Of a stretch of 64,000 nt of DNA, positions 10,029 to 23,780 are shown piece by piece (the first letter of the stretch is position 1; each line of letters begins with the position of its first letter). The notes under the pieces are model-generated. The model did no database searches. It was not told the origin of the DNA and was given only the letters and a program-made list of their open reading frames with translations. A program made the position numbers and the translations under genes. This DNA comes from an uncultured virus (IMG/VR IMGVR_UViG_3300027749_003369) (lineage: Duplodnaviria; Heunggongvirae; Uroviricota; Caudoviricetes), in IMG/VR virus record IMGVR_UViG_3300027749_003369; one strand, written 5' to 3'.

Positions 10029-11219
10029 ATGCTAAACAATAAACAACGTGAGTACATTAAATACGCTTATAGCCTATTTAATAAAGATGTGTTAACTAAA
10101 AAAGAGTTGATACAAGCAAACAAAAAATTTGGTTGTAAATACGCTCCACAATGGTTAATTAAAGATAAACAATACAAAGTTGATAAGGCGACTTTTAGAT
10201 TACCTTTAGATGGTGATATTAAAAAAACTGTTGCCGTTGAATCAACTAATAATACTGAGATTAAAAAAGAAGCCGCTTATATTGTATCTTCTTTAACAGG
10301 CGACATTGTGCCTAAAAAAGATCCAGTGTTTGTTCCATTTGGTAACTACCCAGATATTAAATCTATTATTAAATCTGGTAAATTTTATCCTATATTCATT
10401 ACTGGTTTATCTGGTAATGGTAAAACAATGTCTGTAATGCAGGCATGTGCTGAGGCTAAAAAAGAATGTATCAGAGTAAACGTTACAATTGAAACCGACG
10501 AGGACGATTTACTTGGTGGTTACAGATTAAAAGACGGCCAAACTGTATGGCAAAACGGTCCAGTTATTGAAGCCATGGAGAGAGGCGCTCTTCTTTTATT
10601 AGATGAGATTGATTTAGCTTCTAATAAAATTATGTGTTTACAACCTATCTTAGAAGGATCAGGAGTGTTTGTTAAAAAAATTAACAAATTTGTAAAACCA
10701 AAAGACGGTTTTAACGTAGTGGCAACTGCCAATACTAAAGGTCAAGGTTCCGAAGATGGTAAGTTTATCGGTACTAATATCCTTAACGAAGCTTTCTTAG
10801 AGAGATTTCCGGTTACATTTGAACAAAGATATCCAAATGCTAAGACTGAGGAAAAAATTCTAAATAATACTTTAGAAGCTACTGGTAAAAAAGATACTAA
10901 CTATGTTAACAAACTTGTTACATGGGCGGATGTTATCAGAAAAACTTACTTTGATGGTGGTGTAGATGAGATTATATCTACCAGAAGATTAGTACATATT
11001 GTACAAGCTTACTCTATCTTTAGTAATAAACTTAAAGCAATTGAATTGTGTACAAATAGATTTGATGAAGATACTAAAACTTCATTTGTAGATTTATACA
11101 CTAAAGTTGATGCTGGCGCTACTGCTGATCAGATTATAGAATCTCAAAGACAGTCAGAAGTTGCGGCTCAATCTCAAACGGATTCCAATGATGGTGAGGA
11201 GGAAGCAGTAGCTATTTAA
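10029..11219 (+). CDS. cobS: CobS/MoxR-like AAA+ ATPase
   Basis: GLSGNGKT, LLLDEID, TANTKG and AFLERF; typical of marine T4-like phages. Confidence 0.85.
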   Translation: MLNNKQREYIKYAYSLFNKDVLTKKELIQANKKFGCKYAPQWLIKDKQYKVDKATFRLPLDGDIKKTVAVESTNNTEIKKEAAYIVSSLTGDIVPKKDPVFVPFGNYPDIKSIIKSGKFYPIFITGLSGNGKTMSVMQACAEAKKECIRVNVTIETDEDDLLGGYRLKDGQTVWQNGPVIEAMERGALLLLDEIDLASNKIMCLQPILEGSGVFVKKINKFVKPKDGFNVVATANTKGQGSEDGKFIGTNILNEAFLERFPVTFEQRYPNAKTEEKILNNTLEATGKKDTNYVNKLVTWADVIRKTYFDGGVDEIISTRRLVHIVQAYSIFSNKLKAIELCTNRFDEDTKTSFVDLYTKVDAGATADQIIESQRQSEVAAQSQTDSNDGEEEAVAI

Positions 11220-11255
11220 ATAGTTACTTTTCTAAAATCCATTAATAATAGTCCT

Positions 11256-11277
11256 GAGTGGCCAATAATGGCCACTC
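11256..11277 (+). terminator. Stem-loop GAGTGGCCA-ATAA-TGGCCACTC
   Basis: Perfect 9-bp inverted repeat after cobS; no strong U-tract. Confidence 0.5.
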
Positions 11278-11303
11278 TAAACACCCTAAGGAGGTATATT
11301 TAA

Positions 11304-11513
11304 TTGGGACTCAAAGTAGAAGTTAAGAATAACAATGTCGAAAAGGCAATGCGTATTCTTAAAAAGAAAATGCTTAAAGAGGGCGTTCTAAGACTGTACA
11401 AAATGAAACAGACTTATGAAAAACCATCTGAAAAAAGAGTTAGGAAAGCAAAAGAAATGCGAGCTAACTATTTAAAGAAGCAAAAAGAACTAAGAAATCT
11501 AAGAGGTTACTAG
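11304..11513 (+). CDS. rpsU: Ribosomal protein bS21
   Basis: [16 protein letters not shown]...[11 protein letters not shown] start preceded by TAAGGAGGT. Confidence 0.9.
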
Positions 11514-11547
11514 TTTTAACATTATATTTGAAACTAAATATATTATA

Positions 11548-11652
11548 GATTAGGCAACTCATAAGACCTGATCGGTGTTAAAAAGATTGATCCTACTTAA
11601 AGGATCAGCAAATCGGTGTTTGGTAGTTTACTCCGTGATAAACAAACTACCA
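11548..11652 (+). ncRNA. Candidate structured small RNA (three hairpins)
   Basis: Stems GATTAGG/CCTGATC, TGATCCT/AGGATCA and TGGTAGTTT/AAACTACCA in a non-coding gap. Confidence 0.35.
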
Positions 11653-11678
11653 CTTGACAAAGCATAGTCTAATGACTA

Positions 11679-11686
11679 TATAAATA
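11679..11686 (+). promoter_or_regulatory. T4-type late promoter TATAAATA (hsp20)
   Basis: Exact gp55 consensus upstream of hsp20. Confidence 0.6.
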
Positions 11687-11688
11687 AT

Positions 11689-11748
11689 ATTGAAAGTGCC
11701 AATAGTGGGCTTTTAATTTTAACTTGCTTAACAAAAGGAGAAAAAATG
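11689..11748 (+). promoter_or_regulatory. ROSE-like RNA thermometer leader of hsp20
   Basis: CTTGCT able to pair with the AGGAG Shine-Dalgarno with a bulged G; preceding hairpin. Confidence 0.55.
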
Positions 11749-12189
11749 ACAAACAGACAATTAAGCATATTCAATCAACTAAGACCCTTATCTATAGGTT
11801 TCAATAATGTATTTGACCACTTTGAGTCAATGCTAAATGATGACTTTGGATTAAGAGTTCCAACAGTAAATTATCCACCATACAATATTGTAGAAACATC
11901 TAAGAACAAATACGATATCGAAGTGGCTCTTGCTGGTTACGGTAAAAAAGATATAGACGTAACCTTTGAAGATGGACAGTTAACTATCAAATCTAAAAAA
12001 TCTGATAAAGAGGACGTTAAAGATAATACACTGTACAAAGGTATCGCTAAAAGATACTTTGAAAGATCATTTACAATTGCTGATGATGTAGAAATCAAAG
12101 GCGCTGAATTAAAAGATGGTCTATTGAAGGTATCGTTAGAGAAGATTATACCTGAAACAAAAAAACCAAGAACTATTGACATTCGATAG
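11746..12189 (+). CDS. hsp20: Small heat shock protein Hsp20/IbpA-like
   Basis: NYPPYNIV, IEVALAG, KGIAKRYFERSF and ELKDGLL alpha-crystallin motifs. Confidence 0.95.
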   Translation: MTNRQLSIFNQLRPLSIGFNNVFDHFESMLNDDFGLRVPTVNYPPYNIVETSKNKYDIEVALAGYGKKDIDVTFEDGQLTIKSKKSDKEDVKDNTLYKGIAKRYFERSFTIADDVEIKGAELKDGLLKVSLEKIIPETKKPRTIDIR

Positions 12190-12202
12190 TTATAATTCAC
12201 TT

Positions 12203-12228
12203 AAAGGCCGACTAAAATCGGCCTTTTT
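12203..12228 (+). terminator. Rho-independent terminator
   Basis: AAAGGCCGA-CTAAAA-TCGGCCTTT followed by further T residues. Confidence 0.85.
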
Positions 12229-12240
12229 GTGTTGTAAAAA

Positions 12241-12310
12241 TAAGTAATTGATTTTATTGCCTTATTTCTTTTCCACAAAGCTTGCATTTTTTAATAATGT
12301 ATGGTATATT
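12241..12310 (+). promoter_or_regulatory. Early-type promoter with IHF-consensus site
   Basis: TAAGTAATTGATT (12241), TTGCAT (12282), TG-n-TATATT (12305). Confidence 0.6.
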
Positions 12311-12423
12311 GGTATTATCACTATCTAAAAATAGTGGTAAATGTGCGTTGACTTATAGTAGTATAAGTTAACAAATTGAAACTGCTACCTACAGTAGCAA
12401 AAATAATATGAAAGGAGTTACCT

Positions 12424-13806
12424 ATGGTAATTCGTACAAATGGCCGTAGACCATTAATATCTACAAGCAAAGACTATACTCTAACAAGTTCTTTAGTTAG
12501 AGATTTAAAAAAACTAACAGCACTAGACCTAAGCTTTCAAAGTGAACAGCGATGGGATTTGGAACAAAAATCAAAATATATAAGCAGTCTAATACTAGGT
12601 ATGGCACCTAGTAAGGTTATTCTTGCTAATATAGATGAATGTTTAAAAAATTCTCAATCAGATAGTTGGGACTTTATATACTTTAATAATTGGAAACAAA
12701 AAGGATTCCAAAAGATATCAATTGATGGTAATAACAGAACAATTACTATTGATGAATATATGAATGGAAAAGTATCCATAATACATGATGATTATCAAAT
12801 GCCAAATGGACAGATAGTTGTTATCGACAAAAATAATGATACTTGGTTTAAACATCCTATTGTTTTTAGAAAATATATTGAAGAAAATATATTTTTAACA
12901 GTAACCGAATATACAAACGCAACAAGACAAGATTTAACTAACTTGTTTATTTGTATTAATGATGGTTTTACATTAAACGCACAAGAATTAAGAAACGCTA
13001 TCTTAGTTCCTTATGCTGAATGGGTAAGAAAAATGACTTTATTAACATATAATGATATGTTAGTAAAAGTATTTCCTACTATCAAACAAAAAGTGAGACG
13101 AGTTATTGATGATTATATAGTATCAATGTCTATTTTCACAACTTATGGTACAGAAAAATCAATTCAAGGTGCTGAAAAAAATGCAGCTTATGAAGATGAT
13201 TCTACCGTATCACAAAAAATATCTTTAGATAGAGCAGAAAAATTAATTAAATCTTTTGCTTCTTTTGTTAAAAAGAATTGTGGTGAAGAAATGAAAAACC
13301 ATAGTACTCTTTTTAATCTTTTTATGGTATATACTTATCTTTTTGATAATGAATATATTATAAAAAATGATAAAATTTTTTATGAATGGTTTATAAAAAG
13401 CGAAAATAAAAGAATATCTAATACTAATACTATAATGACAACTGCAGGAGGTGAAAGCAGAACTTACGAATCTTGTAATTCTACTATGTCATCACCTGAA
13501 TTAAAAGCAAGATATAAATTATTAATTAAAGAACTTGCTTTGGTGGTTGATGTTCATGCCGAGAAAAAAGACAAAATTCGTTTATTTTCTCCTCAAGAAA
13601 GGTATAAACTTTGGGAAAGACAAAATGGTATTTGTCCTGAAACAGGAAAAACTATACTCGAGTTTGAAATAAATGACGATACAAAATGGCATGCAGATCA
13701 TATTATTCCTTATTCTAAAGGCGGTAAAACTACTTTAGAAAATGGACAGTTGATCGATAAGTTATCAAACTTAAAAAAATCAAATAAATTATCAATTATA
13801 AGATAA
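12424..13806 (+). CDS. DUF262 (ParB-like) + HNH protein, GmrSD-like
   Basis: FQSEQRW, SIDGNNRT and INDGFTLNAQELRNA in the N-terminus; C-terminal ADHIIPYSKGG...N...N HNH. Confidence 0.75.
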   Translation: MVIRTNGRRPLISTSKDYTLTSSLVRDLKKLTALDLSFQSEQRWDLEQKSKYISSLILGMAPSKVILANIDECLKNSQSDSWDFIYFNNWKQKGFQKISIDGNNRTITIDEYMNGKVSIIHDDYQMPNGQIVVIDKNNDTWFKHPIVFRKYIEENIFLTVTEYTNATRQDLTNLFICINDGFTLNAQELRNAILVPYAEWVRKMTLLTYNDMLVKVFPTIKQKVRRVIDDYIVSMSIFTTYGTEKSIQGAEKNAAYEDDSTVSQKISLDRAEKLIKSFASFVKKNCGEEMKNHSTLFNLFMVYTYLFDNEYIIKNDKIFYEWFIKSENKRISNTNTIMTTAGGESRTYESCNSTMSSPELKARYKLLIKELALVVDVHAEKKDKIRLFSPQERYKLWERQNGICPETGKTILEFEINDDTKWHADHIIPYSKGGKTTLENGQLIDKLSNLKKSNKLSIIR

Positions 13807-13813
13807 TATAAAA

Positions 13814-13844
13814 GTGGCCAAGGATGCTTGACTTCCTTGGCCAC
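13814..13844 (+). terminator. Stem-loop GTGGCCAAGGA...TCCTTGGCCAC
   Basis: 11-bp inverted repeat after the HNH gene; loop contains TTGACT, a possible tRNA promoter -35. Confidence 0.55.
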
Positions 13845-13863
13845 CTATGTTAGGTTAATAATT

Positions 13864-13937
13864 GCGGATGTAGTATAAAAGTATTATTGTAGGTTTCCAA
13901 CTTACAGAAATTGGGGCAGTACCAGTCATCCGCTCCA
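13864..13937 (+). tRNA. tRNA-Gly (TCC), non-canonical D and T loops
   Basis: Acceptor GCGGATG/CATCCGC, U73, encoded CCA; anticodon arm GTAGG-TTTCCAA-CTTAC; T arm ATTGG-GGCAGTA-CCAGT. Confidence 0.8.
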
Positions 13938-13944
13938 AAATTAT

Positions 13945-14130
13945 ATGATGAAATTAATTCACAAATTAGGCCACTATCATTCTAAATTATTTGCATACGT
14001 TGGTAGAAGAGCACAAGAATCTAAAGTTTGGGCAATACTATTAACAGTAATAATTATATACGAATTTATAGAACATATAGTTTATCCTATATTAGTTCCT
14101 TATTTACTTTATATTCAATGGGTAAAATAG
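13945..14130 (+). CDS. Small membrane protein
   Basis: Hydrophobic C-terminal half. Confidence 0.5.
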   Translation: MMKLIHKLGHYHSKLFAYVGRRAQESKVWAILLTVIIIYEFIEHIVYPILVPYLLYIQWVK

Positions 14131-14166
14131 ATTGACTTTTAATAAAGTTTGTGATACATTAATATT

Positions 14167-14433
14167 ATGAAATACAATGAAGATAAAATTTTAAAAGAAA
14201 TCTTAGATTACATTCAAGGTACTTATGGTCAACATTACTCTACGGGTAAAGATGGCTTTCAAGTGCAAGATTTATTTAAAACTTTAAAAATTGGAAAAGA
14301 TTTTTGTCATGCAAACGCAATTAAGTATTTGTGTAGGTATGGTAAGAAAAACGGATATAACCGTGCTGACTTATTGAAGGCAGTACATTATGTTATATTA
14401 TTATTAAACTATGATAAGGAGAACGTGAAATGA
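14167..14433 (+). CDS. DUF3310-like protein
   Basis: HY...FC.ANAIKYL.RYGKK...DL.KA.HY pattern; promoter TTGACT(14132)-17-TACATT. Confidence 0.7.
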   Translation: MKYNEDKILKEILDYIQGTYGQHYSTGKDGFQVQDLFKTLKIGKDFCHANAIKYLCRYGKKNGYNRADLLKAVHYVILLLNYDKENVK

Positions 14434-15095
14434 ACCTAAGTACAGATACATTATCCATTTTAAAGAATTTTAGCGAGATCAATAACAACATTCTTTTTAA
14501 ACCGGGTAGCAAGTTAAATACAATATCTGCTATGAAAAATATATTAGCAGAAGCAACAATCACAGAAAAATTTGATACAGAATTTGGCATCTATGATCTA
14601 AATGAGTTTTTAAGAGCGGTAGAATTATTTGATAAACCTGCTGTTAAAGTCAATGGTGCAAACTACGCTTTAATCTCTGATGAAAAATCTAAACAAGTAA
14701 TTAAATATTTCTTTGCTGATAAATCAGTATTAGTATCACCTCAAAAAGGTATTAATATGCCAGATAAGACAGTAGCATTTACTTTGAAAAAAGAAGATTT
14801 TGCTAGAATACAAAAGGCAGCCACAACATTAAATTTACCAGATATCGCAATTAAAGGTAATGGTAAAATAATATCTTTTGTTGCAACAGATAAGAAAAAC
14901 AAATCTTCAAATGATTACTCTTTAAATGTAGGTGAAACAGACAAAACATTTACAGCTTACTTTAAAGCAGATAACTTCAAGATTATTTCTGATGATTATG
15001 ACGTTGCTATTTCTAAAGCAAAGATCAGCCACTTTATAAACAGAAGTAAACCAGTACAGTATTGGATAGCATTAGAGCCAGATTCGGAGTTCTAA
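14430..15095 (+). CDS. 45: Sliding clamp gp45
   Basis: LKNFSEINNNI, FGIYDLNEFL and YWIALE. Confidence 0.93.
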   Translation: MNLSTDTLSILKNFSEINNNILFKPGSKLNTISAMKNILAEATITEKFDTEFGIYDLNEFLRAVELFDKPAVKVNGANYALISDEKSKQVIKYFFADKSVLVSPQKGINMPDKTVAFTLKKEDFARIQKAATTLNLPDIAIKGNGKIISFVATDKKNKSSNDYSLNVGETDKTFTAYFKADNFKIISDDYDVAISKAKISHFINRSKPVQYWIALEPDSEF

Positions 15096-15096
15096 T

Positions 15097-15381
15097 ATGA
15101 AATTCTCCAGAACGGAATGGCATCAAGTCGCTTCTGAATTTCAATGTGATCTTCCTGATGAAGAAGTCATAAAGATATTTGGTTCAGTACAACGCTTAAA
15201 AGAAATCATATCACATCAAGAGCAACAATGGGGTAGTGATATAGAACCTATTGGCAAACCTCCAACAGAAGAAGAAAACGAGTTGTTAGACGAGGCTTGT
15301 GCTAATTATTCTGAAAGAGTTGATGATTGGTGGACAGATCGTAAAGGTGGTTACGAAGTTAGTTATAGTTATGAAAAATAA
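15097..15381 (+). CDS. Hypothetical protein
   Basis: ORF in operon context. Confidence 0.5.
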   Translation: MKFSRTEWHQVASEFQCDLPDEEVIKIFGSVQRLKEIISHQEQQWGSDIEPIGKPPTEEENELLDEACANYSERVDDWWTDRKGGYEVSYSYEK

Positions 15382-15396
15382 ATTGAGGATTATATT

Positions 15397-16341
15397 ATGT
15401 CAGACTTTTTGTGGGTTGAAAAATACCGACCAAAGAAGATACAAGATTGTATCTTATCAGAAGATTTAAAACAAACTTTCTTAGAGTTCGTTAAGAAAAA
15501 AGAAATACCTAATCTGTTATTATCAGGTACAGCAGGCACAGGTAAGACTACTGTAGCTCGTGCTTTATGTGATGAAATAGGTGCCGACTATATTATCATA
15601 AACGGTTCAGATGAAGGCCGCCAGATTGATACATTAAGAAACAAAATCAAAAACTTTGCTTCTACTATTTCACTTACCAAAGATGCCAATCATAAAGTTG
15701 TAATTATAGATGAGGCTGATTATATGAACGCCGAATCGGTACAACCAGCATTAAGAAACTTTATTGAAACGTTTTTTAATAATTGTAGATTTATCTTTAC
15801 TTGTAACTATAAAAACAAAATCATACCTGCTCTACATAGTCGTTGTACAGTAATTGATTTTAGAATTGTCAATGGTCAAAAGGTAAAAACGGCCACTCAA
15901 TTAATGGATAGACTATCTATTATATTAAAAGATGAAGGCGTTGAATTTGATAAAAAGGTATTGGCAGAAGTAATACAAAAATATTATCCGGACTTTAGAA
16001 GAACTATAAACGAATTACAAAGATATTCAGTCCGTGGTAAAATTGACAGTGGTATTCTTTTTAGTTTATCAGAAGAAAATAATAAAGACCTTATTGTAAA
16101 ATTAAAAGATAAAGACTTTAATGGTATGAGAAAATGGGTTATACAAAACCTAGACAAAGAACCTAGTGCTTTGTTTACAAGTATCTATGATGTACTTTAC
16201 GAACATTTAGAACCTAAATCAATACCTCAAGCAGTATTAATTATTGCTGGTTATCAATATAAGGCGGCCTTTGTTGCTGACCAAGAAATTAATATGGTGG
16301 CCTGCTTAACTGAAATAATGGCTGGATGTAAATTTAAATGA
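15397..16341 (+). CDS. 44: Clamp loader large subunit gp44
   Basis: WVEKYRP, GTAGTGKTT, IIDEAD and SRC motifs. Confidence 0.95.
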   Translation: MSDFLWVEKYRPKKIQDCILSEDLKQTFLEFVKKKEIPNLLLSGTAGTGKTTVARALCDEIGADYIIINGSDEGRQIDTLRNKIKNFASTISLTKDANHKVVIIDEADYMNAESVQPALRNFIETFFNNCRFIFTCNYKNKIIPALHSRCTVIDFRIVNGQKVKTATQLMDRLSIILKDEGVEFDKKVLAEVIQKYYPDFRRTINELQRYSVRGKIDSGILFSLSEENNKDLIVKLKDKDFNGMRKWVIQNLDKEPSALFTSIYDVLYEHLEPKSIPQAVLIIAGYQYKAAFVADQEINMVACLTEIMAGCKFK

Positions 16342-16583
16342 CAATTATATTAAAAAACCTCATAAACAATTGGAAATTAAATAAGTCAGAAACGCCATTA
16401 CGCAGTTTTGTTAAAGCTTACAGTTACAGATGTTGTGGTACCTTAGCAACAATAATAATATCATATTGTATTACAGGCAAATTTATAGTTAGTTTAGGAA
16501 TAGGAGCAGTTGAAATGATTGTTAAACCATTTATATATTGGTGCCATGAACGTGTATGGAACAGGATTAAATGGGGAAGATAA
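16338..16583 (+). CDS. DUF2061-like membrane protein
   Basis: RSFVKAYSYR...YWCHERVWNRIKWG. Confidence 0.7.
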   Translation: MTIILKNLINNWKLNKSETPLRSFVKAYSYRCCGTLATIIISYCITGKFIVSLGIGAVEMIVKPFIYWCHERVWNRIKWGR

Positions 16584-16589
16584 TAATAA

Positions 16590-16664
16590 GCGGGCATAGT
16601 TCAGTGGTAGAATAATAGTTTACCAAACTATAGGTCGTGGGTTCGAATCCCACTGCCCGCTCCA
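16590..16664 (+). tRNA. tRNA-Gly with anticodon ACC
   Basis: Canonical cloverleaf: GCGGGCA/TGCCCGC, D loop AGTGGTA, anticodon arm ATAGT-TTACCAA-ACTAT, GTGGG-TTCGAAT-CCCAC, U73, CCA. Confidence 0.9.
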
Positions 16665-16681
16665 AAATTATCCAAAATTAT

Positions 16682-17071
16682 ATGTACGAATTAAAAGATT
16701 ATTTAAAAGCGATTAATGAAACAAAAGAACCACTACTAGACAGTGATGATTCTACGTGGGAAAAGAAGTATCCACCATATATTATAAATCGTTGTCTTTC
16801 TATGTTTTGGGACACATTAATGCCGGCCAATGAAATGAACGGGCTACACTTCTTGGATAAAAAGTTACAATTTCATTTTTTAATAAATAGTATCAGAAAA
16901 AAGAAGCGATTTGGTGGTAAGTGGTTATCACAAACCAGGTTGAAAGATTTAGAGTATGTGAAAGAATACTATGGTTATAGCAATGAAAAGGCAAGAGAGG
17001 CCTTAACTTTATTGACCAAAGAACAACTTGAACATATTAAGAAAAAATTATACAAAGGTGGGAGAGAGTAA
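16682..17071 (+). CDS. 62: Clamp loader small subunit gp62
   Basis: YPPYIINRCLS, ANEMN and VKEYYGYSNEKA; true start after the tRNA. Confidence 0.9.
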   Translation: MYELKDYLKAINETKEPLLDSDDSTWEKKYPPYIINRCLSMFWDTLMPANEMNGLHFLDKKLQFHFLINSIRKKKRFGGKWLSQTRLKDLEYVKEYYGYSNEKAREALTLLTKEQLEHIKKKLYKGGRE

Positions 17072-17505
17072 TGGTAGATAATATTAAATGGTCAATAGAG
17101 GACATGTTAGAGGTAACAATCAAACAGCCTGATGACTTTTTAAAAGTAAGAGAAACACTTACTAGAATTGGTGTAGCATCAAGAAAAGATAAGACTTTAT
17201 TTCAGTCATGTCATATACTTCATAAACAAGGCAAATATTACATTGTACATTTTAAAGAGTTATTCGCTCTTGATGGTAAGACTGCTACATTATCTGAAAA
17301 CGATATTCAAAGAAGAAATACAATTGCAATATTATTAGCAGATTGGAATTTAATTAATATAGTTAAAAAAGAGGCGGCTGAAAACAAAGCACCTTTAAGT
17401 CAAATTAAAGTACTACCTTTCAAAGAAAAGAAAGATTGGATACTATCGGCAAAATATAATATTGGTAAAAAAGTTACTAAAGATAATGAAACAAATGGTG
17501 AATAA
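17071..17505 (+). CDS. regA: Translational repressor RegA
   Basis: DDFLKVRETLTRIGVA, QSCHILHKQG.YYIVHFKELF. Confidence 0.95.
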   Translation: MVDNIKWSIEDMLEVTIKQPDDFLKVRETLTRIGVASRKDKTLFQSCHILHKQGKYYIVHFKELFALDGKTATLSENDIQRRNTIAILLADWNLINIVKKEAAENKAPLSQIKVLPFKEKKDWILSAKYNIGKKVTKDNETNGE

Positions 17506-18993
17506 ATGCAAGTATCTAAGTTTAGAGACTTTATAAAAGAAGAAAGACAACAGGATGAAAAAGATCCTATTACTGTTGTTATTATTAGTAAATCTTCTCC
17601 TAAAGTAAGACGACAAAAAACAGGTAATAAAAAGACCAAAAAAGAAATTACCGTAAGTTTTGTACAGAAATCTTGTGCTAAAAGAAAAATACCGTGTTAC
17701 GTAATCAATACTAAATTCTCAATCATCACAGATAAAGACGAAGAAAAAAATACATTAACAATTTATAATTATGACGGTGAAGATGGTGAACACACATTCA
17801 TTGGTAAGAATACAGTAGTTATCACAAGAGCAGGTGCTATAGAGGACGAAGCAGGTCTTTCTTTGATATCAGCATTTCAAAATTCTGGTGCGTTTATGTT
17901 AAACACCAGATCAGCAATGTTAACATGCGATAACAAACTAACTTCAGCATTGTTATTTGAAAAGTTTAATATACCAACTCCAAAAACTGCCTTCATATCA
18001 AACGAAAAGAATTTAGATAACGCATTAAAACTAGTAGGTAATAAATTTCCAGTAATTGTAAAAACATTAACAGGCACACAAGGTATTGGTGTAGTTAAAG
18101 TAGATAGTTACGATTCATTAGTATCAGTAGTACAAGCATTGTTTAAACATGATGCTGAATTGTTATTACAAGAATACATGCCAACAGATTCAGATGTAAG
18201 AACATTCGTAGTAGATAATAAAATATTTGCATGTACTAGACGTGTTAAAAAATCTGGCGAATTTAGATCAAACGTTCATAGAGGGGCTATAGCAGAACCA
18301 TATAAACTTTCAGATGAAGAAATAGAAATTGTTTTAAGAACAGCAAGAGCATCAAAAGCATATCTTGTAGGTATAGATCATATAAAATATAAAGGTAAAA
18401 TTTACGTATTAGAAGCAAACGGTTCTCCAGGAACTGGTGCAGATTATGAAGGATATCATTACGAAGATTATATTGATACACCAGATACTACAGGCCCAAT
18501 TAAAGGTAGTCAATTGGTAGATAACGTTATAGAATATATTTCTGATAGAAAACATTGGGATAGACAATCAATTGTAGAAGTAGGTTATTTAGAAACAATA
18601 GAATTATCTACAGTAGGAAAAGTAAGAGCAAAATTAGATACAGGTAATGGTGCAGAAACATGTGCCTTACATGCAGAAGAAGTGGAAGTTGTTGATGGTA
18701 AAGTTGCATGGAAATATAATGGTAAAAAGCATACAAGCAAGTTAGAAGGTTACCATAAAATTTTTAGAGCCAATACAAATGATGGTGAAGGAGAAAAAAG
18801 ACCAGTTGTTAAATTAGATTTAACATTTAATGGATTTACATATAAAGATGTATTGTTTGGTCTTGATGAACGTAAAAGATCAGCGTCAGACGTATTATTA
18901 AACAGAGACATCATTAGAAAAATGAATGCTTCGGTAAATCCAAATAGAGAATTTGTATTAAGTAGAAGAATAAAACCTATTGACAAAAAGTAA
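17506..18993 (+). CDS. RimK-like ATP-grasp ligase fused to a C-terminal RimB-like (retropepsin-fold) protease
   Basis: PVIVK..GTQGIGV, LLQEY, DVR, FRSNVHRG and LEANGSPG; C-terminal AKLDTG...RPVV...VLLNR. Confidence 0.8.
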   Translation: MQVSKFRDFIKEERQQDEKDPITVVIISKSSPKVRRQKTGNKKTKKEITVSFVQKSCAKRKIPCYVINTKFSIITDKDEEKNTLTIYNYDGEDGEHTFIGKNTVVITRAGAIEDEAGLSLISAFQNSGAFMLNTRSAMLTCDNKLTSALLFEKFNIPTPKTAFISNEKNLDNALKLVGNKFPVIVKTLTGTQGIGVVKVDSYDSLVSVVQALFKHDAELLLQEYMPTDSDVRTFVVDNKIFACTRRVKKSGEFRSNVHRGAIAEPYKLSDEEIEIVLRTARASKAYLVGIDHIKYKGKIYVLEANGSPGTGADYEGYHYEDYIDTPDTTGPIKGSQLVDNVIEYISDRKHWDRQSIVEVGYLETIELSTVGKVRAKLDTGNGAETCALHAEEVEVVDGKVAWKYNGKKHTSKLEGYHKIFRANTNDGEGEKRPVVKLDLTFNGFTYKDVLFGLDERKRSASDVLLNRDIIRKMNASVNPNREFVLSRRIKPIDKK

Positions 18994-19667: not shown

Positions 19668-22153
19668 TGAACTTTTACAAATCAGTTATAGAACATAGAG
19701 GTAAACTTCTTATTAGAGGTATACATAACGGCAAAGAATATAAAGAACGAATAGACTTTGGGCCTACACTTTATTCATTAACACAACAACAAACAGAATT
19801 TAAAACCTTACAAGATCAGTATTTAAAACCTATTACTTTCAAAACTATAGATGATGCTAGAAAATTTAGGAGAGAAGTAGTTACTGATAATTCTCCTATT
19901 TACGGCCTAGAACGATATCATTATCAATATATTAATAAATTTCATTCTGATAATATAGATTGGGATAAAAAATTTATTAAAATTTTTACATTAGATATAG
20001 AGACTAGTTGCGAAAGCGGTTTTCCAGATGTTCAAAATCCTATAGAAGAAATACTTTGTATTACAGTTAAAAATCAATCTAATAAACAAATATTAACTTG
20101 GGGAACTGGTGAATATAAAACAGATAGAACTGATATAACTTATGTAAGATGTAAGTCTGAAAAAGAATTGATGTTTGAGTTTATGAAGTTTTGGATTAAA
20201 AACTACCCAGATGTTACAACAGGTTGGAATACAAAGTTCTTTGATATACCTTATTTACTTAGTAGAATTATATTAATTGCAGGTGAAAAAGTTGCACAAA
20301 AGATATCGCCTTGGAATTTAATTCAAAAAGAAGAAATATTAGTCAGAGGTAGGCCACAAACAGTTTACAATATATTAGGTATTACAAACTTAGATTACTT
20401 AGACTTATATCAATGGTTTATTCCTACAAGGCAAGAAAGTTATAAGTTAGATTTTATTGGCGAATTAGAACTTGGTCGTGGTAAAGATGAAATGAAACAT
20501 GATACATTTAAAGATTGGTACACAAAAGACTTCCAATCATTTATAGATTATAATATTCAAGACGTTGAAATCGTTGACGCATTAGAAGATAAACTTGGCC
20601 TGATTGACCTATCATTAACTGTTGCTTATGAATCTAAAGTAAACTATGGTGATATCTTTTCACAAGTTCGAGTGTGGGATACCTTAATTGCAAATCATTT
20701 GTTAAGTAAAAATATTTGTATTCCTCCACGTGAAGATAATACTAAGGATGAAAAGTATGAAGGTGCTTATGTAAAAGATCCGATACTTGGCATGCACAAA
20801 TGGGTAGTTTCTTTTGATATCAATTCACTATACCCTCATATTATTATACAGTATAATATTTCACCAGAAAAGATTATTGGTTTAAATTCAGAAGGTATAT
20901 CTGTTAATAAGATGTTAGATAAGTCAACATCTTTAGATTATTTAAAAGATAAGAATGCTTGTATTACACCTAATGGTGCATTATTTAAAAACGATAGTCA
21001 AGGTTTTCTACCAGAGATGATGGAGACAATGTATAATGAACGTGTTATTTTTAAGAATAGAATGTTACTTGCAAAAAAAGAATATGAGAAAACAAAAGAT
21101 CCAAGTTTAGTTAGAGAAATATCACGTTGTCATAATATTCAATGGGCAAGAAAGATCGCCTTAAACTCAGCTTACGGTGCAGTAGGTAATGAATACTTTA
21201 GATATTATGATGTAAGACAGGCCAGTGCCATTACAACAGCAGGCCAATTTATTATTAGATTTATAGAAGAAAAGGTAAATAGTTATTTAAATAAAATATT
21301 ACAGACTGATAATATAGATTATATTGTGGCATCTGATACAGATTCTATCTATGTTACATTAGATAAACTTGTAGAACAAACTTGTAAAGACAAAACAGAA
21401 GATCAAATATGTAATTTTTTAAATAAAGTTGTTGATAGTAGAGTTGAACCATTTTTAAATAAATGTTTTGAAGAACTTGCAGACTATACAAACGCATTTA
21501 AAAACTGTATGGTAATGAAACGAGAAGTAATCGCTAACAAAGGTATTTGGGTTGCAAAGAAAAGATATATGTTAAATGTATTAGATGAAGAAGGCGTTAG
21601 ACTTTCGCAACCTAAATTAAAGATCATGGGTATAGAAGCGGTTAAATCTTCAACGCCACAAGTTTGTAGAGGTAGAATTAAAGAAGCCATTAAAATTATA
21701 ATGAGTAAAGACGAAGATACTTTACAAAAGTTTATTGCTGATTTTAAAAAAGAGTTCTTTACTATGTCGGCTGAACAAATATCTTTTCCAAGATCATGTA
21801 ATAACATGAAAAAATATTACGATAGTAATAATATCTTTATTAAAGGAACACCAATACATGTTAAAGGTGCTTTAATTTATAATTATCAAGTAAAAGAATT
21901 TAAACTTAAAAGTAAATATCCCTTAATACAAGAAGGAGATAAAATCAAGTTTCTTAAACTTGTAGAAGCAAATCCATTTAAGTTTGATGTGATAAGTTAT
22001 ATAACAACCTTACCTAAAGAATTTAATTTACAACAGTATATAGATTATGAAACTCAATTTGAAAAAACATTTTTAGATCCAATGAGATTTATATTACAAT
22101 CTATTGGTTGGTCGCAAGAAAAGAAAGCAAACCTAGAGGCATTTTTTGCATGA
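19667..22153 (+). CDS. 43: Family B DNA polymerase gp43
   Basis: DIET (exo I), SFDINSLYP, KIALNSAYG and SDTDS. Confidence 0.97.
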   Translation: MNFYKSVIEHRGKLLIRGIHNGKEYKERIDFGPTLYSLTQQQTEFKTLQDQYLKPITFKTIDDARKFRREVVTDNSPIYGLERYHYQYINKFHSDNIDWDKKFIKIFTLDIETSCESGFPDVQNPIEEILCITVKNQSNKQILTWGTGEYKTDRTDITYVRCKSEKELMFEFMKFWIKNYPDVTTGWNTKFFDIPYLLSRIILIAGEKVAQKISPWNLIQKEEILVRGRPQTVYNILGITNLDYLDLYQWFIPTRQESYKLDFIGELELGRGKDEMKHDTFKDWYTKDFQSFIDYNIQDVEIVDALEDKLGLIDLSLTVAYESKVNYGDIFSQVRVWDTLIANHLLSKNICIPPREDNTKDEKYEGAYVKDPILGMHKWVVSFDINSLYPHIIIQYNISPEKIIGLNSEGISVNKMLDKSTSLDYLKDKNACITPNGALFKNDSQGFLPEMMETMYNERVIFKNRMLLAKKEYEKTKDPSLVREISRCHNIQWARKIALNSAYGAVGNEYFRYYDVRQASAITTAGQFIIRFIEEKVNSYLNKILQTDNIDYIVASDTDSIYVTLDKLVEQTCKDKTEDQICNFLNKVVDSRVEPFLNKCFEELADYTNAFKNCMVMKREVIANKGIWVAKKRYMLNVLDEEGVRLSQPKLKIMGIEAVKSSTPQVCRGRIKEAIKIIMSKDEDTLQKFIADFKKEFFTMSAEQISFPRSCNNMKKYYDSNNIFIKGTPIHVKGALIYNYQVKEFKLKSKYPLIQEGDKIKFLKLVEANPFKFDVISYITTLPKEFNLQQYIDYETQFEKTFLDPMRFILQSIGWSQEKKANLEAFFA

Positions 22154-23253
22154 AAACTTTAACTAAAGAACAAGCACTATATTGTGTTAAAATATTTAAA
22201 GATTATTTTGGTAGTTTTAATCGTATAGATGATTACATGAGAGATCAAAAACTGGCCTCTATACAAAACATTCCTGCTGGATTACCAGGCATGAGTTTAG
22301 AAGATGACTTGTTTTCCGATTTTGCAATGTCTCCTAATGATATGAAGTTAGAAGTATTAGAAATAGATAATGTAACTTGGGACACTTGTATTAATATGAT
22401 ATCAAGCCATAGTAACATGGTAAGTATTCCTGGTAAAAATTTAAAACTAGCAGTTAAAGAAATGACAACAAATAAATTTGTAGGGTTTATAAGATTGGCA
22501 TCACCAGTTATTAATATGAAACCTAGAAACGAAATGTTAGGTAATGTTCCCGATCTAAGTCATTTTAATAAAACGGCCATTATGGGATTTGTAATAGTAC
22601 CATCTCAACCTTTTGGTTATAATTATCTTGGTGGTAAACTATTGGCAGCTATTTGTTGTAGTCATAAAGTAAGAGACATGATGAATAAGAAGTATGATAT
22701 GAACTTATGTTTATTTGAAACTACAAGTTTGTATGGTAACAGTAAATCATCAAGTCAGTATGATGGTATGAAACCTTATGTTAGATATAAAGGCCTAACT
22801 GATAGTGATTTTATTCCTATGTTACATGGTAAACCTTATGAACAATTAAGAGACTACGTTGAGAAAATAGTAGGCGATCTAGTAAAAGAAGATGCGTCAA
22901 GTAAGAAGTTAAAGTTAACCAATGCAATTATAGGGTTAATAAAACGATCTTTAAAAGATGACAAGACAGAATTGGAAGATTTTAATAAAGTTATCAACAA
23001 CGCAAAAGACTTGACGGAACAGAAAAGATACTATATAAGTCATTATGGTATCAAAAATTATATTGATATAGTAAATGGTAAGACAGATACTATAATTAAA
23101 GATGATACCTATGATAAATTTGAACTAGAAAGTATCATAGAATGGTGGAGAAAGAAAGCGGCCATTCGTTATGAGACTTTAAAGAAAGAAAATAAGATAA
23201 GAAATGAACTTGAACTTTGGACTAAAAATTCTTCAATACAAATTATTCGATAA
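22150..23253 (+). CDS. DUF4338 / DruA-like protein (paralog 2)
   Basis: PFGYNYLGGKLLA and ETTSLYG..SSQYD, shared with ORF 6298; overlaps the gp43 stop (ATGA). Confidence 0.75.
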   Translation: MKTLTKEQALYCVKIFKDYFGSFNRIDDYMRDQKLASIQNIPAGLPGMSLEDDLFSDFAMSPNDMKLEVLEIDNVTWDTCINMISSHSNMVSIPGKNLKLAVKEMTTNKFVGFIRLASPVINMKPRNEMLGNVPDLSHFNKTAIMGFVIVPSQPFGYNYLGGKLLAAICCSHKVRDMMNKKYDMNLCLFETTSLYGNSKSSSQYDGMKPYVRYKGLTDSDFIPMLHGKPYEQLRDYVEKIVGDLVKEDASSKKLKLTNAIIGLIKRSLKDDKTELEDFNKVINNAKDLTEQKRYYISHYGIKNYIDIVNGKTDTIIKDDTYDKFELESIIEWWRKKAAIRYETLKKENKIRNELELWTKNSSIQIIR

Positions 23254-23327: not shown

Positions 23328-23780
23328 ATGGAACAGAATAAACTTTTAATACACAAACATTTAATTATTAGAGCCGAAGTGAAAAACCCACCAAAAAACG
23401 AAGAACAACTAACAAACTGGTTAAAAGACTTTATATCTTTTATTGATATGAAAGTTTTAATGGGACCTTATGTTAAGTATTGTAACACTGAAGGTAACAG
23501 AGGTATTACAGGTGTGGCCGTTATTGAAACAAGTCATATAGCAATGCACGTATGGGACGAGACAGATCCTGGTATTATGCAATTTGACGTTTATAGCTGT
23601 TCAGAATTTGACCCTTATAAGATTGCAGACAAACTACAAGCAGACTTTGATGTAGTTAAATTAGACTATAAGTTCTTAAACCGTGAAACTGAATTGAAAC
23701 CTATTAGATTAAAAAAAGATACTATGAATAAATATGCAAATAATTATATACAAGAGTCCTTCCAATTATCTAATACATAA
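23328..23780 (+). CDS. speD: S-adenosylmethionine decarboxylase (SpeD/SpeH-type pyruvoyl enzyme)
   Basis: GITGVAVIETSHIAMHVW and DVYSC; late promoter TATAAATA at 23266. Confidence 0.85.
   Translation: MEQNKLLIHKHLIIRAEVKNPPKNEEQLTNWLKDFISFIDMKVLMGPYVKYCNTEGNRGITGVAVIETSHIAMHVWDETDPGIMQFDVYSCSEFDPYKIADKLQADFDVVKLDYKFLNRETELKPIRLKKDTMNKYANNYIQESFQLSNT

What the first reader, a model, noticed from the sequence alone, without database searches (positions are those of the whole stretch)
16590..16664. tRNA-Gly with the very rare ACC anticodon
Seen: a perfect cloverleaf with Gly identity elements (G1-C72, C2-G71, U73, C35 C36) but A34. Known: bacteria essentially restrict A34 to tRNA-Arg(ICG), and Gly(ACC) is nearly absent. 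GGT appears to be the dominant Gly codon in these genes. Inference: codon-tuned supply for GGU (unmodified A34 or I34), or evasion of anticodon nucleases.
Basis: partly seen in the sequence, partly recalled or inferred. Interest (0 to 1): 0.7.

Follow-up and report, generated by a model that had tools for sequence, protein, structure and literature searches.

The report
Phage glycine tRNA with ACC anticodon
A freshwater virus related to the viruses of SAR11 bacteria carries an intact glycine tRNA whose anticodon, ACC, is one that reviews call missing from all cells; related viruses have evolved the same oddity several times, most likely to read their favourite glycine codon, GGU.

Summary
Window 16590-16664 (+) is a canonical tRNA-Gly with anticodon ACC (A34 at 16622), found by ARAGORN and by Rfam (73.6 bits). 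An independent DNA run and identical copies in IMG/VR contigs support the A. The window is a T4-like pelagimyophage from freshwater metagenomes.

ACC is not a one-off. All 21 window-type tRNAs in IMG/VR have it. The cultured Pelagibacter phage HTVC008M carries an unannotated ACC tRNA on an unrelated, non-canonical body. A general pattern scan found 97 viral loci with 37 distinct sequences. The same pattern hit 0 of 401 Pelagibacterales genomes.

A syntenic sister phage has GCC in the same gene slot, so G34 and A34 versions both circulate.

The window also holds a second tRNA-Gly (UCC, 13864-13937), which ARAGORN misses and which cmscan on larger stretches (the whole window, 11000-17000) does not report.

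Phage genes use GGU/GGC far more than a SAR11 host does (75-84% against 52% of Gly codons).

Best reading: an unmodified-A34 decoder that prefers GGU. Inosine is unlikely because C36 breaks the TadA motif. Evasion of a nuclease is untested. Expression and charging are not shown.

Earlier notes of this scan report ACC glycine tRNAs in other phage genomes.

The parts
16590..16664 (+). tRNA-Gly(ACC), canonical body, with CCA encoded
   Evidence: ARAGORN. Rfam RF00005 at 73.6 bits. Sequence read. Cloverleaf covariation across 29 related sequences.
16622..16624 (+). Anticodon ACC; A34 is at 16622
   Evidence: Sequence. DNA run X5 shows no other letter at this place. The anticodon loop of a SAR11 tRNA-Gly(GCC) is TTGCCAA against TTACCAA here.
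13864..13937 (+). Second tRNA-Gly, anticodon UCC (13896-13898). The elbow is non-canonical: D-loop AAAAGTA without GG, T-loop GGCAGTA without TTC.
   Evidence: RF00005 at 38.4 bits (gathering score 29), E 3.9e-7, when 13820-13980 is searched alone. Missed by ARAGORN, and not reported by cmscan on the whole window or on 11000-17000. Identical in G001. Family covariation.
13828..13856 (+). Promoter-like TTGACT, 17 nt, TAGGTT, ending 7 nt before the UCC tRNA. It overlaps an inverted repeat, GTGGCCAAGG..CCTTGGCCAC.
   Evidence: Read. TTGACT is conserved at the same place in G004. This is inference only.
16510..16539 (+). Promoter-like site TTGAAA, 18 nt, TATATT, about 50 nt upstream of the ACC tRNA
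   Evidence: Best consensus match in 15300-17300, 10 of 12 positions. The region gave 16 sites against 10.4 +/- 3.3 in shuffles, so this is weak.
15397..16341 (+). gp44-type clamp-loader large subunit, upstream flank of the tRNA slot
   Evidence: Pfam AAA and Gp44_lid. 84% identical to the G004 homologue.
16338..16583 (+). Small DUF2061 membrane-protein ORF that ends 6 nt before the tRNA
   Evidence: Pfam PF09834, 61.1 bits.
16682..17071 (+). gp62-type clamp-loader small subunit, starting 17 nt after the tRNA
   Evidence: Pfam Phage_clamp_A. 77% identical to the G004 homologue, which follows a tRNA-Gly(GCC).

Best explanation
This is a functional phage-encoded elongator tRNA-Gly whose wobble base is a genomically encoded and probably unmodified adenosine.

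It is transcribed with the clamp-loader genes and cut out by host RNase P and 3' nucleases. CCA is already encoded. Host GlyRS charges it, since GlyRS does not read position 34. It then decodes GGU by a Watson-Crick A-U pair and GGC less well.

It fills the GGY-reader slot that a GCC tRNA fills in sister phages. Together with the phage's own tRNA-Gly(UCC) it gives the phage a full set of glycine decoders, weighted towards its dominant codon GGU.

Shown: the gene, its conservation, the recurrence of ACC, the codon statistics, and the lack of the TadA motif.

Inferred: expression, charging, the unmodified state of A34, and the decoding preference.
For: 1. It is a real, canonical tRNA with G1-C72, C2-G71, G3-C70, U73, C35 and C36. 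That these are the bacterial Gly identity elements is recalled. Passages of PMC4928997 say position 34 is not read by GlyRS and that an ACC tRNA-Gly can be charged.

2. It is under selection as a tRNA. In 29 sequences, 97.2% of pair cells are standard pairs against 44-48% with slid partners, and 15 of 21 pairs change on both sides.

3. ACC is stable within the lineage. A scan with the 5' half only (no anticodon in the pattern) gave 22 loci. Of these, 21 are window-type tRNAs, all ACC, in 6 variants; 1 is an unrelated TCC tRNA.

4. ACC recurs on unrelated bodies.
- HTVC008M-type non-canonical body: 15 ACC (5 variants) and 18 GCC (1 variant) of 33 loci.
- A second non-canonical body occurs with UCC (window, G004) and with ACC.
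- A general scan found 97 viral loci: 76 called by ARAGORN, and the other 21 are non-canonical tRNAs. They give 37 distinct sequences, in 22 clusters at 90% identity.

5. ACC sits in the slot that GCC occupies elsewhere. The syntenic phage G004 has tRNA-Gly(GCC) between gp44 and gp62, where the window has ACC. Within 1.5 kb of 76 ACC genes, the other Gly isoacceptors seen were tcc (2 loci) and ccc+tcc (1 locus), and never gcc.

6. Codon demand favours a GGY reader.
- GGT+GGC share of Gly codons: 75% in the window, 83% in Mosig, 84% in HTVC008M, 68% in Melnitz.
- The share is 52% in 92,450 codons of Pelagibacter G002, which has one GCC and one UCC tRNA.
- GGT ranks 2nd of 61 codons by phage-minus-host excess in HTVC008M, G004 and Mosig, and 9th in the window.

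7. A34 is probably left unmodified.
- The loop is UUACCAA. Published TadA sites are UACG/YUACGAA, or UAMG in S. pyogenes (passages of PMC11472039).
- An ACC tRNA in E. coli showed no inosine. It read GGU against GGC at 76:24, read GGG detectably, and did not read GGA (passages of PMC11066159).
- No PF00383 deaminase was found in HTVC008M, Mosig, G001, G004 or G008, and none among the window's Pfam hits.
Against: - No RNA evidence exists here that the tRNA is made, charged or unmodified.
- Carrying a Gly tRNA does not track codon use among relatives. GGT share is 0.69 in Mosig and 0.59 in Melnitz, which have no Gly tRNA, against 0.73 in HTVC008M and 0.59 in the window, which have ACC.
- The expected drop of GGC in ACC carriers is seen only in the HTVC008M type (0.09-0.11, against 0.16-0.19 in GCC carriers). 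It is not seen in the window type (0.16-0.18). The GCC carriers are one phage population.
- The phage also carries a UCC tRNA, although GGA ranks 58-60 of 61 in phage excess. Codon supply alone therefore does not explain the pair.
- The host used for comparison is a marine Pelagibacter, while the window comes from freshwater, and the window covers only a replication module.
- Molecular dynamics in PMC4928997 (passages) suggests that A34 distorts the tRNA-Gly anticodon loop.
- The MFE fold of the bare sequence is not a cloverleaf.
Confidence: 0.55

Rival explanations
1. Inosine tRNA. Host TadA deaminates A34 to I34, so that one phage tRNA reads GGU, GGC and GGA.
For: The loop shares U33-A34-C35 and A37-A38 with the host tRNA-Arg(ACG) loop CUACGAA. 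TadA-like ORFs exist in many Pelagibacteraceae: by my count of the rows, 34 of 61 genomes have a short CDA-fold ORF. Of the 3 I checked, all hit TadA best, at 73-145 bits, under the cut-off of 150. The window's true host is unknown.
Against: C36 replaces the G36 that is invariant in the published TadA consensus UACG/UAMG. The ACC tRNA tested in E. coli was not modified. Human ADAT barely deaminates tRNA-Gly(ACC). Two large Pelagibacter genomes (G002, G003) show no TadA: their only CDA-fold gene is RibD. The phage already has a UCC tRNA for GGA.
Confidence: 0.08
2. Counter-defence or independence from the host. The phage brings its own pair of glycine tRNAs (UCC and ACC) so that translation continues when host tRNA-Gly is cleaved, depleted or degraded. 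The G34A change makes the GGY reader invisible to an enzyme that reads the GCC anticodon.
For: Both of the window's tRNAs are for glycine, including one for codons the phage uses less than the host does. The anticodon loop differs from the host's at position 34 only. Phage tRNAs with anticodon-loop changes that escape host nucleases are a published idea (PMC10264068, seen only as title and abstract in the listing). The tRNA is an accessory gene, gained and lost among relatives.
Against: No tRNA-Gly-specific nuclease is known to me (recalled), and none was searched for in SAR11. Sister phages keep GCC in the same slot. Nothing in the window links the tRNA to a defence or anti-defence gene.
Confidence: 0.17
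3. Tolerated drift. In very AT-rich phages a G-to-A change at position 34 is nearly neutral, because all GGN codons mean glycine and the host still supplies GCC. On this view ACC has no adaptive value.
For: All ACC carriers lie in AT-rich flanks, GC 0.27-0.47. The stems of the window tRNA are AT-enriched relative to the SAR11 GCC tRNA. There is no consistent codon-use difference between ACC and GCC carriers. The window-type variants have too few variable sites to prove constraint on the loop (my estimate).
Against: ACC is fixed in all 21 window-type genes and all 15 HTVC008M-type ACC genes, while the stems keep compensatory pairing. It arose on at least three different bodies. No intermediate or decayed copies were seen.
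Confidence: 0.12
4. Non-translational glycine donor. The tRNA delivers glycine to a phage transferase rather than to the ribosome.
For: The related non-canonical phage Gly tRNAs lack the G18G19 and T-loop consensus. A review says the same of the S. aureus cell-wall tRNA-Gly, which binds EF-Tu poorly (passages of PMC8007984). Earlier notes of this scan report a Mom-like transferase beside ACC tRNAs in other phages (untested here).
Against: The window's ACC tRNA has a fully canonical D-loop and T-loop. No Fem-, Mom- or aminoacyl-transferase family is among the window's Pfam hits. Its neighbours are clamp-loader genes.
Confidence: 0.05

Closest known systems
Phage-encoded tRNAs of T4-like phages (T4 tRNA-Gly(UCC) and the tRNA genes of cyanomyophages and pelagimyophages)
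   Same: A small accessory tRNA gene inside a T4-like genome, with CCA encoded, matching a codon the phage uses more than its host does. One ACC lineage (L299 type) is 76% identical to the tRNA-Gly of phage T2.
   Different: The anticodon is ACC. That T4's tRNA-Gly is UCC is recalled, not tested here. Among the phage relatives I read, Gly tRNAs are ACC (HTVC008M), or GCC and UCC (G004). Mosig and Melnitz have none.
Laboratory tRNA-Gly(ACC): the E. coli mutant of Boren et al. 1993 (known to me only through citing passages) and the M. jannaschii tRNA(ACC) of PMC11066159
   Same: The same anticodon. Those tRNAs are active in elongation, keep A34 unmodified, and prefer codons in the order U > C > G > A.
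   Different: Those are engineered or mutant molecules. This one is a natural, conserved gene that has evolved repeatedly.
Natural bacterial A34 tRNAs: tRNA-Arg(ACG)/I34, and tRNA-Leu(AAG) in Streptococcus and Oenococcus
   Same: A genomically encoded A34 in a four-codon box.
   Different: Those carry G36 and are TadA substrates. This one has C36 and is probably not.
The unannotated tRNA of Pelagibacter phage HTVC008M (KC465899.1 91140-91213)
   Same: tRNA-Gly(ACC) with the identical loop TTACCAA, in a related pelagimyophage with a cultured host.
   Different: It has a different body (D-loop AGAAGTA, T-loop AGCGTTA) and a different locus, between CobS and S21. It has no feature in GenBank and is counted as 0 tRNAs in Table 1 of PMC7029224.

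Membership tests
tRNA (Rfam RF00005), elongator tRNA-Gly | Cloverleaf scoring above the family's gathering score | tested here: met
   73.6 bits against a gathering score of 29. ARAGORN calls tRNA-Gly.
tRNA (Rfam RF00005), elongator tRNA-Gly | Conserved core nucleotides: U8, A14, G18G19, U33, T-loop TTCRANY | tested here: met
   T8, A14, D-loop AGTGGTA and T-loop TTCGAAT are read. The list of core positions is recalled.
tRNA (Rfam RF00005), elongator tRNA-Gly | Bacterial GlyRS identity set: G1-C72, C2-G71, G3-C70, U73, C35, C36 | tested here: met
   All are present in the sequence. The set itself is recalled. One search supports that position 34 is not read.
tRNA (Rfam RF00005), elongator tRNA-Gly | Expressed, processed and aminoacylated | not testable with these tools
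   This needs tRNA sequencing of infected cells.
I34 tRNAs (TadA substrates) | Anticodon loop fits the TadA consensus UACG / UAMG | tested here: not met
   The loop is UUACCAA, with C36. The consensus comes from passages of PMC11472039.
I34 tRNAs (TadA substrates) | A TadA-type deaminase is available in the host or the phage | tested here: inconclusive
   None in 5 phage records or in the window. None in Pelagibacter G002 and G003. TadA-like ORFs are present in other family members. The window's host is unknown.
Codon-compensating phage tRNAs | The tRNA reads a codon used more by the phage than by the host | tested here: met
   GGT excess ranks 2nd of 61 codons in HTVC008M, G004 and Mosig, and 9th in the window. 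GGY is 75-84% of Gly codons against 52% in the host. The host is a marine stand-in.
Codon-compensating phage tRNAs | Presence of the tRNA tracks codon use among relatives | tested here: not met
   Mosig and Melnitz lack a Gly tRNA and have a GGT share of 0.69 and 0.59. The carriers have 0.59-0.75.
Nuclease-evading phage tRNAs | An anticodon-loop difference from the host isoacceptor | tested here: met
   TTACCAA against the host's TTGCCAA; only position 34 differs.
Nuclease-evading phage tRNAs | A host enzyme that targets the corresponding host tRNA | not tested
   No search for anticodon nucleases in SAR11 or LD12 genomes was made.

The most novel reading that the evidence does not exclude
Phages of AT-rich, streamlined aquatic bacteria have repeatedly turned GCC-type and UCC-type glycine tRNAs into ACC. 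ACC is the one four-box anticodon that reviews call universally missing and structurally incompatible with tRNA-Gly. On this reading the phages use it with an unmodified A34 as a working GGU decoder. In marine SAR11 Ia hosts, which appear to lack TadA altogether, this would be a natural and culturable test (HTVC008M on Pelagibacter HTCC1062) of why cells avoid A34. A phage-owned UCC+ACC pair might also make glycine decoding independent of the host.
Probability: 0.35. Interest if true: 0.8.

Novelty: new variant of a known kind. Interest (0 to 1): 0.65.

Why it matters
Two papers read here treat tRNA-Gly(ACC) as absent: PMC8007984 from all life and PMC4928997 from eukaryotes. They explain its absence by a structural clash of A34 with the glycine anticodon loop (passages).

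A conserved ACC tRNA-Gly that has evolved repeatedly in abundant aquatic phages shows that the molecule can persist in nature. One carrier has a cultured host, so the open question of why cells avoid A34 in the glycine box becomes testable.

It also matters for annotation. The HTVC008M gene and the window's second Gly tRNA are missed by standard tRNA finders, so phage tRNA censuses undercount this class.

My searches of the held library found no paper on a phage Gly(ACC) tRNA. That library lacks most subscription journals.

Tried and rejected
**RNA evidence.** The three metatranscriptome runs laid (X15, X16, X17) gave no contig of this tRNA. The short pieces on 16596-16628 and 16633-16664 run on into other tRNAs; one is a cellular Gly(GCC). 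So there was no test of expression or of A-to-I editing. All runs were kept as contigs, which cannot show rare variants.

**Codon-anticodon co-adaptation.** GGC share is halved in HTVC008M-type ACC carriers but not in window-type carriers. I rejected this as a general rule.

**Recent capture from the host.** The best match among 401 Pelagibacteraceae genomes is 77-78% identical (337 of 401 genomes have any match). The body is SAR11-like but not recently acquired.

**Named phages.** There is no near-identical window-type tRNA in 50,697 phage records. Only HTVC008M holds a relative of the non-canonical type.

**Sequencing error.** Rejected.

**Own genome.** It is not held, so tRNAs and deaminases outside the 64-kb window are unknown.

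**Thermodynamic folding.** The MFE structure of the ACC tRNA is not a cloverleaf. I relied on the covariance model and on covariation instead.

**ACC against GCC counts in IMG/VR.** The ACC scan returned 97 loci.

**Earlier notes on this genome.** None.

Full report
**1. What is there**

ARAGORN finds one tRNA in the 64-kb window: tRNA-Gly with anticodon acc at 16590-16664 on the + strand. Rfam's tRNA model matches 16590-16661 at 73.6 bits (gathering score 29, E 3.2e-14) with no non-standard pair.

The sequence gives:
- a 7-bp acceptor stem, GCGGGCA/TGCCCGC
- a D arm with the usual AGTGGTA loop
- an anticodon stem, ATAGT/ACTAT
- the loop TTACCAA, with A34 at 16622
- a canonical T arm, GTGGG-TTCGAAT-CCCAC
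- T73 and an encoded CCA

The features I recall as the bacterial glycine identity set are all present: G1-C72, C2-G71, G3-C70, U73, C35 and C36. The minimum-free-energy fold of the bare sequence is not a cloverleaf. The support for the cloverleaf comes from the covariance model and from covariation (section 3).

The A is real. Contigs of DNA run X5, which is not flagged as the possible source, cover 16586-16655 and 16293-16615 without a difference, and no other letter is listed at 16622. The identical 75-nt gene is in 8 of the loci held from IMG/VR and G001.

**2. Whose genome**

The window has 27-33% G+C, and all 76 accepted ORFs lie on the + strand. It encodes a T4-type replication module: UvsW, gp45, gp44, gp62, RegA, family-B DNA polymerase, RecA/UvsX-like, DnaB-like helicase, RNase H and ribonucleotide reductase.

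The nearest named records are Pelagibacter phage Mosig (73.9% nucleotide identity over 77% of 16000-17400), the Methylophilales phages Melnitz, and Pelagibacter phage HTVC008M.

The DNA is held by freshwater, lake and aquatic metagenome runs. The window also carries an AdoMet-decarboxylase (speH-like) gene at 23328-23777. Section 8 of PMC7029224 (read) names speH as particular to the freshwater 'fonsimyophages'. A freshwater SAR11 (LD12) host is therefore an inference, not a result.

**3. ACC is conserved and recurrent**

*Window-type lineage.* A scan of IMG/VR with only the first 23 bases of the tRNA, so without any anticodon constraint, gave 22 loci. Of these, 21 carry the window-type tRNA, all with ACC, in 6 sequence variants. 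One is an unrelated tRNA-Gly(TCC) that shares the 5' end.

*HTVC008M.* HTVC008M has a single tRNA, and it is also Gly(ACC), with the same loop TTACCAA. Its body is quite different: the D-loop is AGAAGTA without GG, and the T-loop is AGCGTTA without TTC (RF00005, 49.5 bits). It lies between cobS and the S21 gene. It has no feature in the GenBank record. HTVC008M is listed with 0 tRNAs in Table 1 of PMC7029224 (passage).

*Both anticodons on one body.* A scan with that body's D arm gave 33 loci: 15 ACC (5 variants) and 18 GCC (1 variant).

*General scan.* The pattern GCGGG, 23-29 nt, TTACCAA, 27-42 nt, CCGCTCCA gave 97 viral loci. ARAGORN calls Gly(acc) in 76 of them. The other 21 all hold non-canonical-body ACC tRNAs. 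Together they give 37 distinct sequences, in 22 clusters at 90% identity and 13 at 80%, all in flanks of 27-47% G+C.

*Covariation.* On 28 ACC sequences plus the host GCC tRNA, 97.2% of pair cells are standard pairs, against 44-48% when partners are slid. Fifteen of 21 pairs change on both sides. The invariance of the loop in this set follows from the search pattern and is not evidence.

*Cells.* The same ACC pattern hit 0 of 401 Pelagibacterales genomes. The GCC version of the pattern hit 31 of 61, so the pattern can see cellular Gly tRNAs.

*Named phages.* Among 50,697 named phage records, I found no other carrier with the queries I used.

**4. The slot, and a second glycine tRNA**

The IMG/VR phage G004 (with G005-G007, one population by shared 21-mers) is syntenic with the window. 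Protein identities are 84% for gp44, 77% for gp62, 85% for RegA and 83% for the polymerase. Between gp44 and gp62, exactly where the window has ACC, G004 has a tRNA-Gly(GCC) of the non-canonical body. So the slot for a GGY reader is shared, while the tRNA body and the wobble base differ.

Both phages also carry a second glycine tRNA about 2.7 kb upstream, between an HNH-domain gene and gp45. In the window it is at 13864-13937. Its loop is TTTCCAA (anticodon UCC), its D-loop is AAAAGTA and its T-loop is GGCAGTA.

ARAGORN misses it. cmscan on the whole window, or on 11000-17000, does not report it. It scores 38.4 bits (E 3.9e-7) when 13820-13980 is searched alone, and the identical copy in G001 was found by the genome search.

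The non-canonical family contains UCC, GCC and ACC members. Over 16 sequences, 96.1% of pair cells are paired, against 34-51% when slid, and 13 of 21 pairs change on both sides.

ACC therefore occurs on at least three different bodies in and around this phage family: the canonical window type, the AGCGTTA type (with a GCC twin), and the GGCAGTA type (with UCC twins).

**5. Codon use and the host**

In the window, 575 of 973 Gly codons are GGT. GGA has 211, GGC 159 and GGG 28. By contrast, Ala, Thr, Val and Pro prefer the A-ending codon.

To reach a host genome I used the SAR11-441R probe, which hit only Pelagibacteraceae records. I took Pelagibacter HTCC8051 (handle G002).

In G002, all 33 RF00005 matches lie in 16 stretches of 20 kb. 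ARAGORN tRNAs there. They include one Gly(GCC), one Gly(UCC), and Arg(ACG), Arg(UCG) and Arg(UCU).

| Genome | Gly tRNA carried | GGT | GGC | GGA | GGG |
|---|---|---|---|---|---|
| Host G002 (5,523 Gly of 92,450 codons) | GCC, UCC | 0.44 | 0.08 | 0.41 | 0.06 |
| Window | ACC, UCC | 0.59 | 0.16 | 0.22 | 0.03 |
| HTVC008M | ACC | 0.73 | 0.11 | 0.15 | 0.02 |
| Mosig | none | 0.69 | 0.14 | 0.16 | 0.02 |
| Melnitz | none | 0.59 | 0.09 | 0.27 | 0.05 |

By phage-minus-host excess per 1000 codons, GGT ranks 2nd of 61 codons in HTVC008M, G004 and Mosig, and 9th in the window. GGA ranks 58-60. A GGY reader is therefore the tRNA these phages would gain most from, second only to a reader of ACA.

Results against a simple tuning story:
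- Mosig and Melnitz lack any Gly tRNA yet have the same GGT bias.
- GGC share is lower in HTVC008M-type ACC carriers (0.09-0.11) than in the GCC carriers (0.16-0.19). It is not lower in window-type ACC carriers (0.16-0.18).
- A UCC tRNA is carried although GGA is under-used.
- The host is a marine stand-in for a freshwater phage.

The host tRNA-Gly(GCC) is colinear with the window tRNA. Both are 75 nt, the acceptor stem is the same, and the loop is TTGCCAA against TTACCAA. Even so, the best identity among 401 family genomes is only 77-78% (337 genomes have a match). The body is SAR11-like but not recently captured.

**6. A or I at position 34?**

*Published evidence (passages only).*
- TadA editing sites in E. 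coli and Klebsiella share UACG/YUACGAA, and those in S. pyogenes share UAMG (PMC11472039). G36 is constant, and the phage tRNA has C36.
- An M. jannaschii tRNA given the ACC anticodon and expressed in E. coli showed no inosine. It read GGU against GGC at 76:24, read GGG detectably, and did not read GGA. The order U > C > G > A is credited to Boren et al. 1993 (PMC11066159).
- Human ADAT barely deaminates tRNA-Gly(ACC), and GlyRS charges it (PMC4928997).

*Searches here.*
- No PF00383 deaminase is found in HTVC008M, Mosig, G001, G004 or G008, and none among the window's Pfam hits.
- In Pelagibacter G002 and G003, the only CDA-fold gene found with PF00383, PF14437 or NF008113 is a 394-aa RibD next to nrdR.
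- By my count of the rows, 34 of 61 other family genomes have a short CDA-fold ORF. Of the 3 I checked, all match TadA best, at 73-145 bits, under the curated 150.

Inosine is therefore unlikely, above all for HTVC008M on a subclade-Ia host. It is not excluded for the window's unknown host.

**7. Reading**

Most likely (0.55), the gene makes a charged glycine tRNA with an unmodified A34. That tRNA serves as the phage's GGY reader, weighted to GGU. It does the job of the GCC tRNA of sister phages, beside a phage UCC tRNA.

| Rival | Confidence |
|---|---|
| Counter-defence, or independence from host tRNA-Gly | 0.17 |
| Tolerated AT drift | 0.12 |
| Inosine | 0.08 |
| Non-ribosomal glycine donor | 0.05 |

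Expression, processing, charging and modification state are all inferred. The RNA runs I could lay gave no contig of the tRNA (see Tried and rejected).

**8. Novelty**

Reviews call tRNA-Gly(ACC) universally missing (PMC8007984, passages). One paper attributes its absence from eukaryotes to a structural conflict (PMC4928997).

My five searches of the held library found no paper describing a phage Gly(ACC) tRNA. Supplements and subscription journals were not seen.

Earlier notes of this scan describe ACC glycine tRNAs in other marine phage genomes, including UCC-to-ACC twins and a Mom-like transferase neighbour. The first two agree with what I found independently. I saw no such neighbour here.

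I class this as a new variant of a known kind: phage-encoded tRNAs.

Noticed in passing
window 13864-13937 (+): A second tRNA-Gly (UCC) with a non-canonical D-loop and T-loop. ARAGORN misses it and cmscan on larger stretches does not report it; it is found only when a 161-nt stretch is searched alone (38.4 bits). A hairpin and a TTGACT, 17 nt, TAGGTT promoter-like site lie just upstream (13814-13856).
   Followed up: yes
L006:1501-1574 (HTVC008M 91140-91213); L282:5974-6047 and 8814-8887 (G004); loci: A family of phage glycine tRNAs that lack G18G19 and the TTC of the T-loop (T-loops AGCGTTA or GGCAGTA). It occurs with UCC, GCC and ACC anticodons and shows strong stem covariation. Standard tRNA finders miss many members, and the HTVC008M copy is unannotated.
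   Followed up: partly
G002 and G003 (Pelagibacter HTCC8051 and HIMB4); L515:1393-2577: These two large SAR11 genomes show no TadA-like gene: the only CDA-fold hit is RibD. Yet they keep tRNA-Arg(ACG) together with Arg(UCG). By my count, 34 of 61 sampled Pelagibacteraceae genomes do have a short CDA-fold ORF; the three I checked hit TadA best. The host's own A34 may therefore be unmodified.
   Followed up: partly
window 16341-16682 (gp44/gp62 junction): The junction is variable among close relatives. A minor X5 contig replaces 16358-16587 with 379 other letters but keeps the tRNA. An X17 contig (92% alike) ends at 16589 and runs on into the gp62 start, as if lacking the tRNA; only 30 loose letters support this, one short of the tool's bar. 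Mosig, HTVC008M and Melnitz have other small ORFs here and no tRNA.
   Followed up: partly
window 6298-7602 and 22150-23250 (+): Two phage ORFs match the Pfam family DruA (Druantia defence protein), at 78.4 and 32.6 bits.
   Followed up: no
window 17506-18993 (+): A RimK-like ATP-grasp fused to a putative zinc-protease domain, directly after regA. It is conserved in Mosig (annotated as glutathione synthetase), in Melnitz and in G004 (67% identical).
   Followed up: no
L008 (Melnitz 74645-74718): Methylophilales phage Melnitz carries a tRNA-Arg(ACG), another A34 tRNA encoded by a phage of this family.
   Followed up: no
window 11349-11513 (+): A short ORF 56% identical to the G004 ORF that follows cobS. 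By position it corresponds to the S21 gene, which in HTVC008M lies directly after the ACC tRNA. The window has no tRNA at that site (87-nt gap, 11217-11303).
   Followed up: partly
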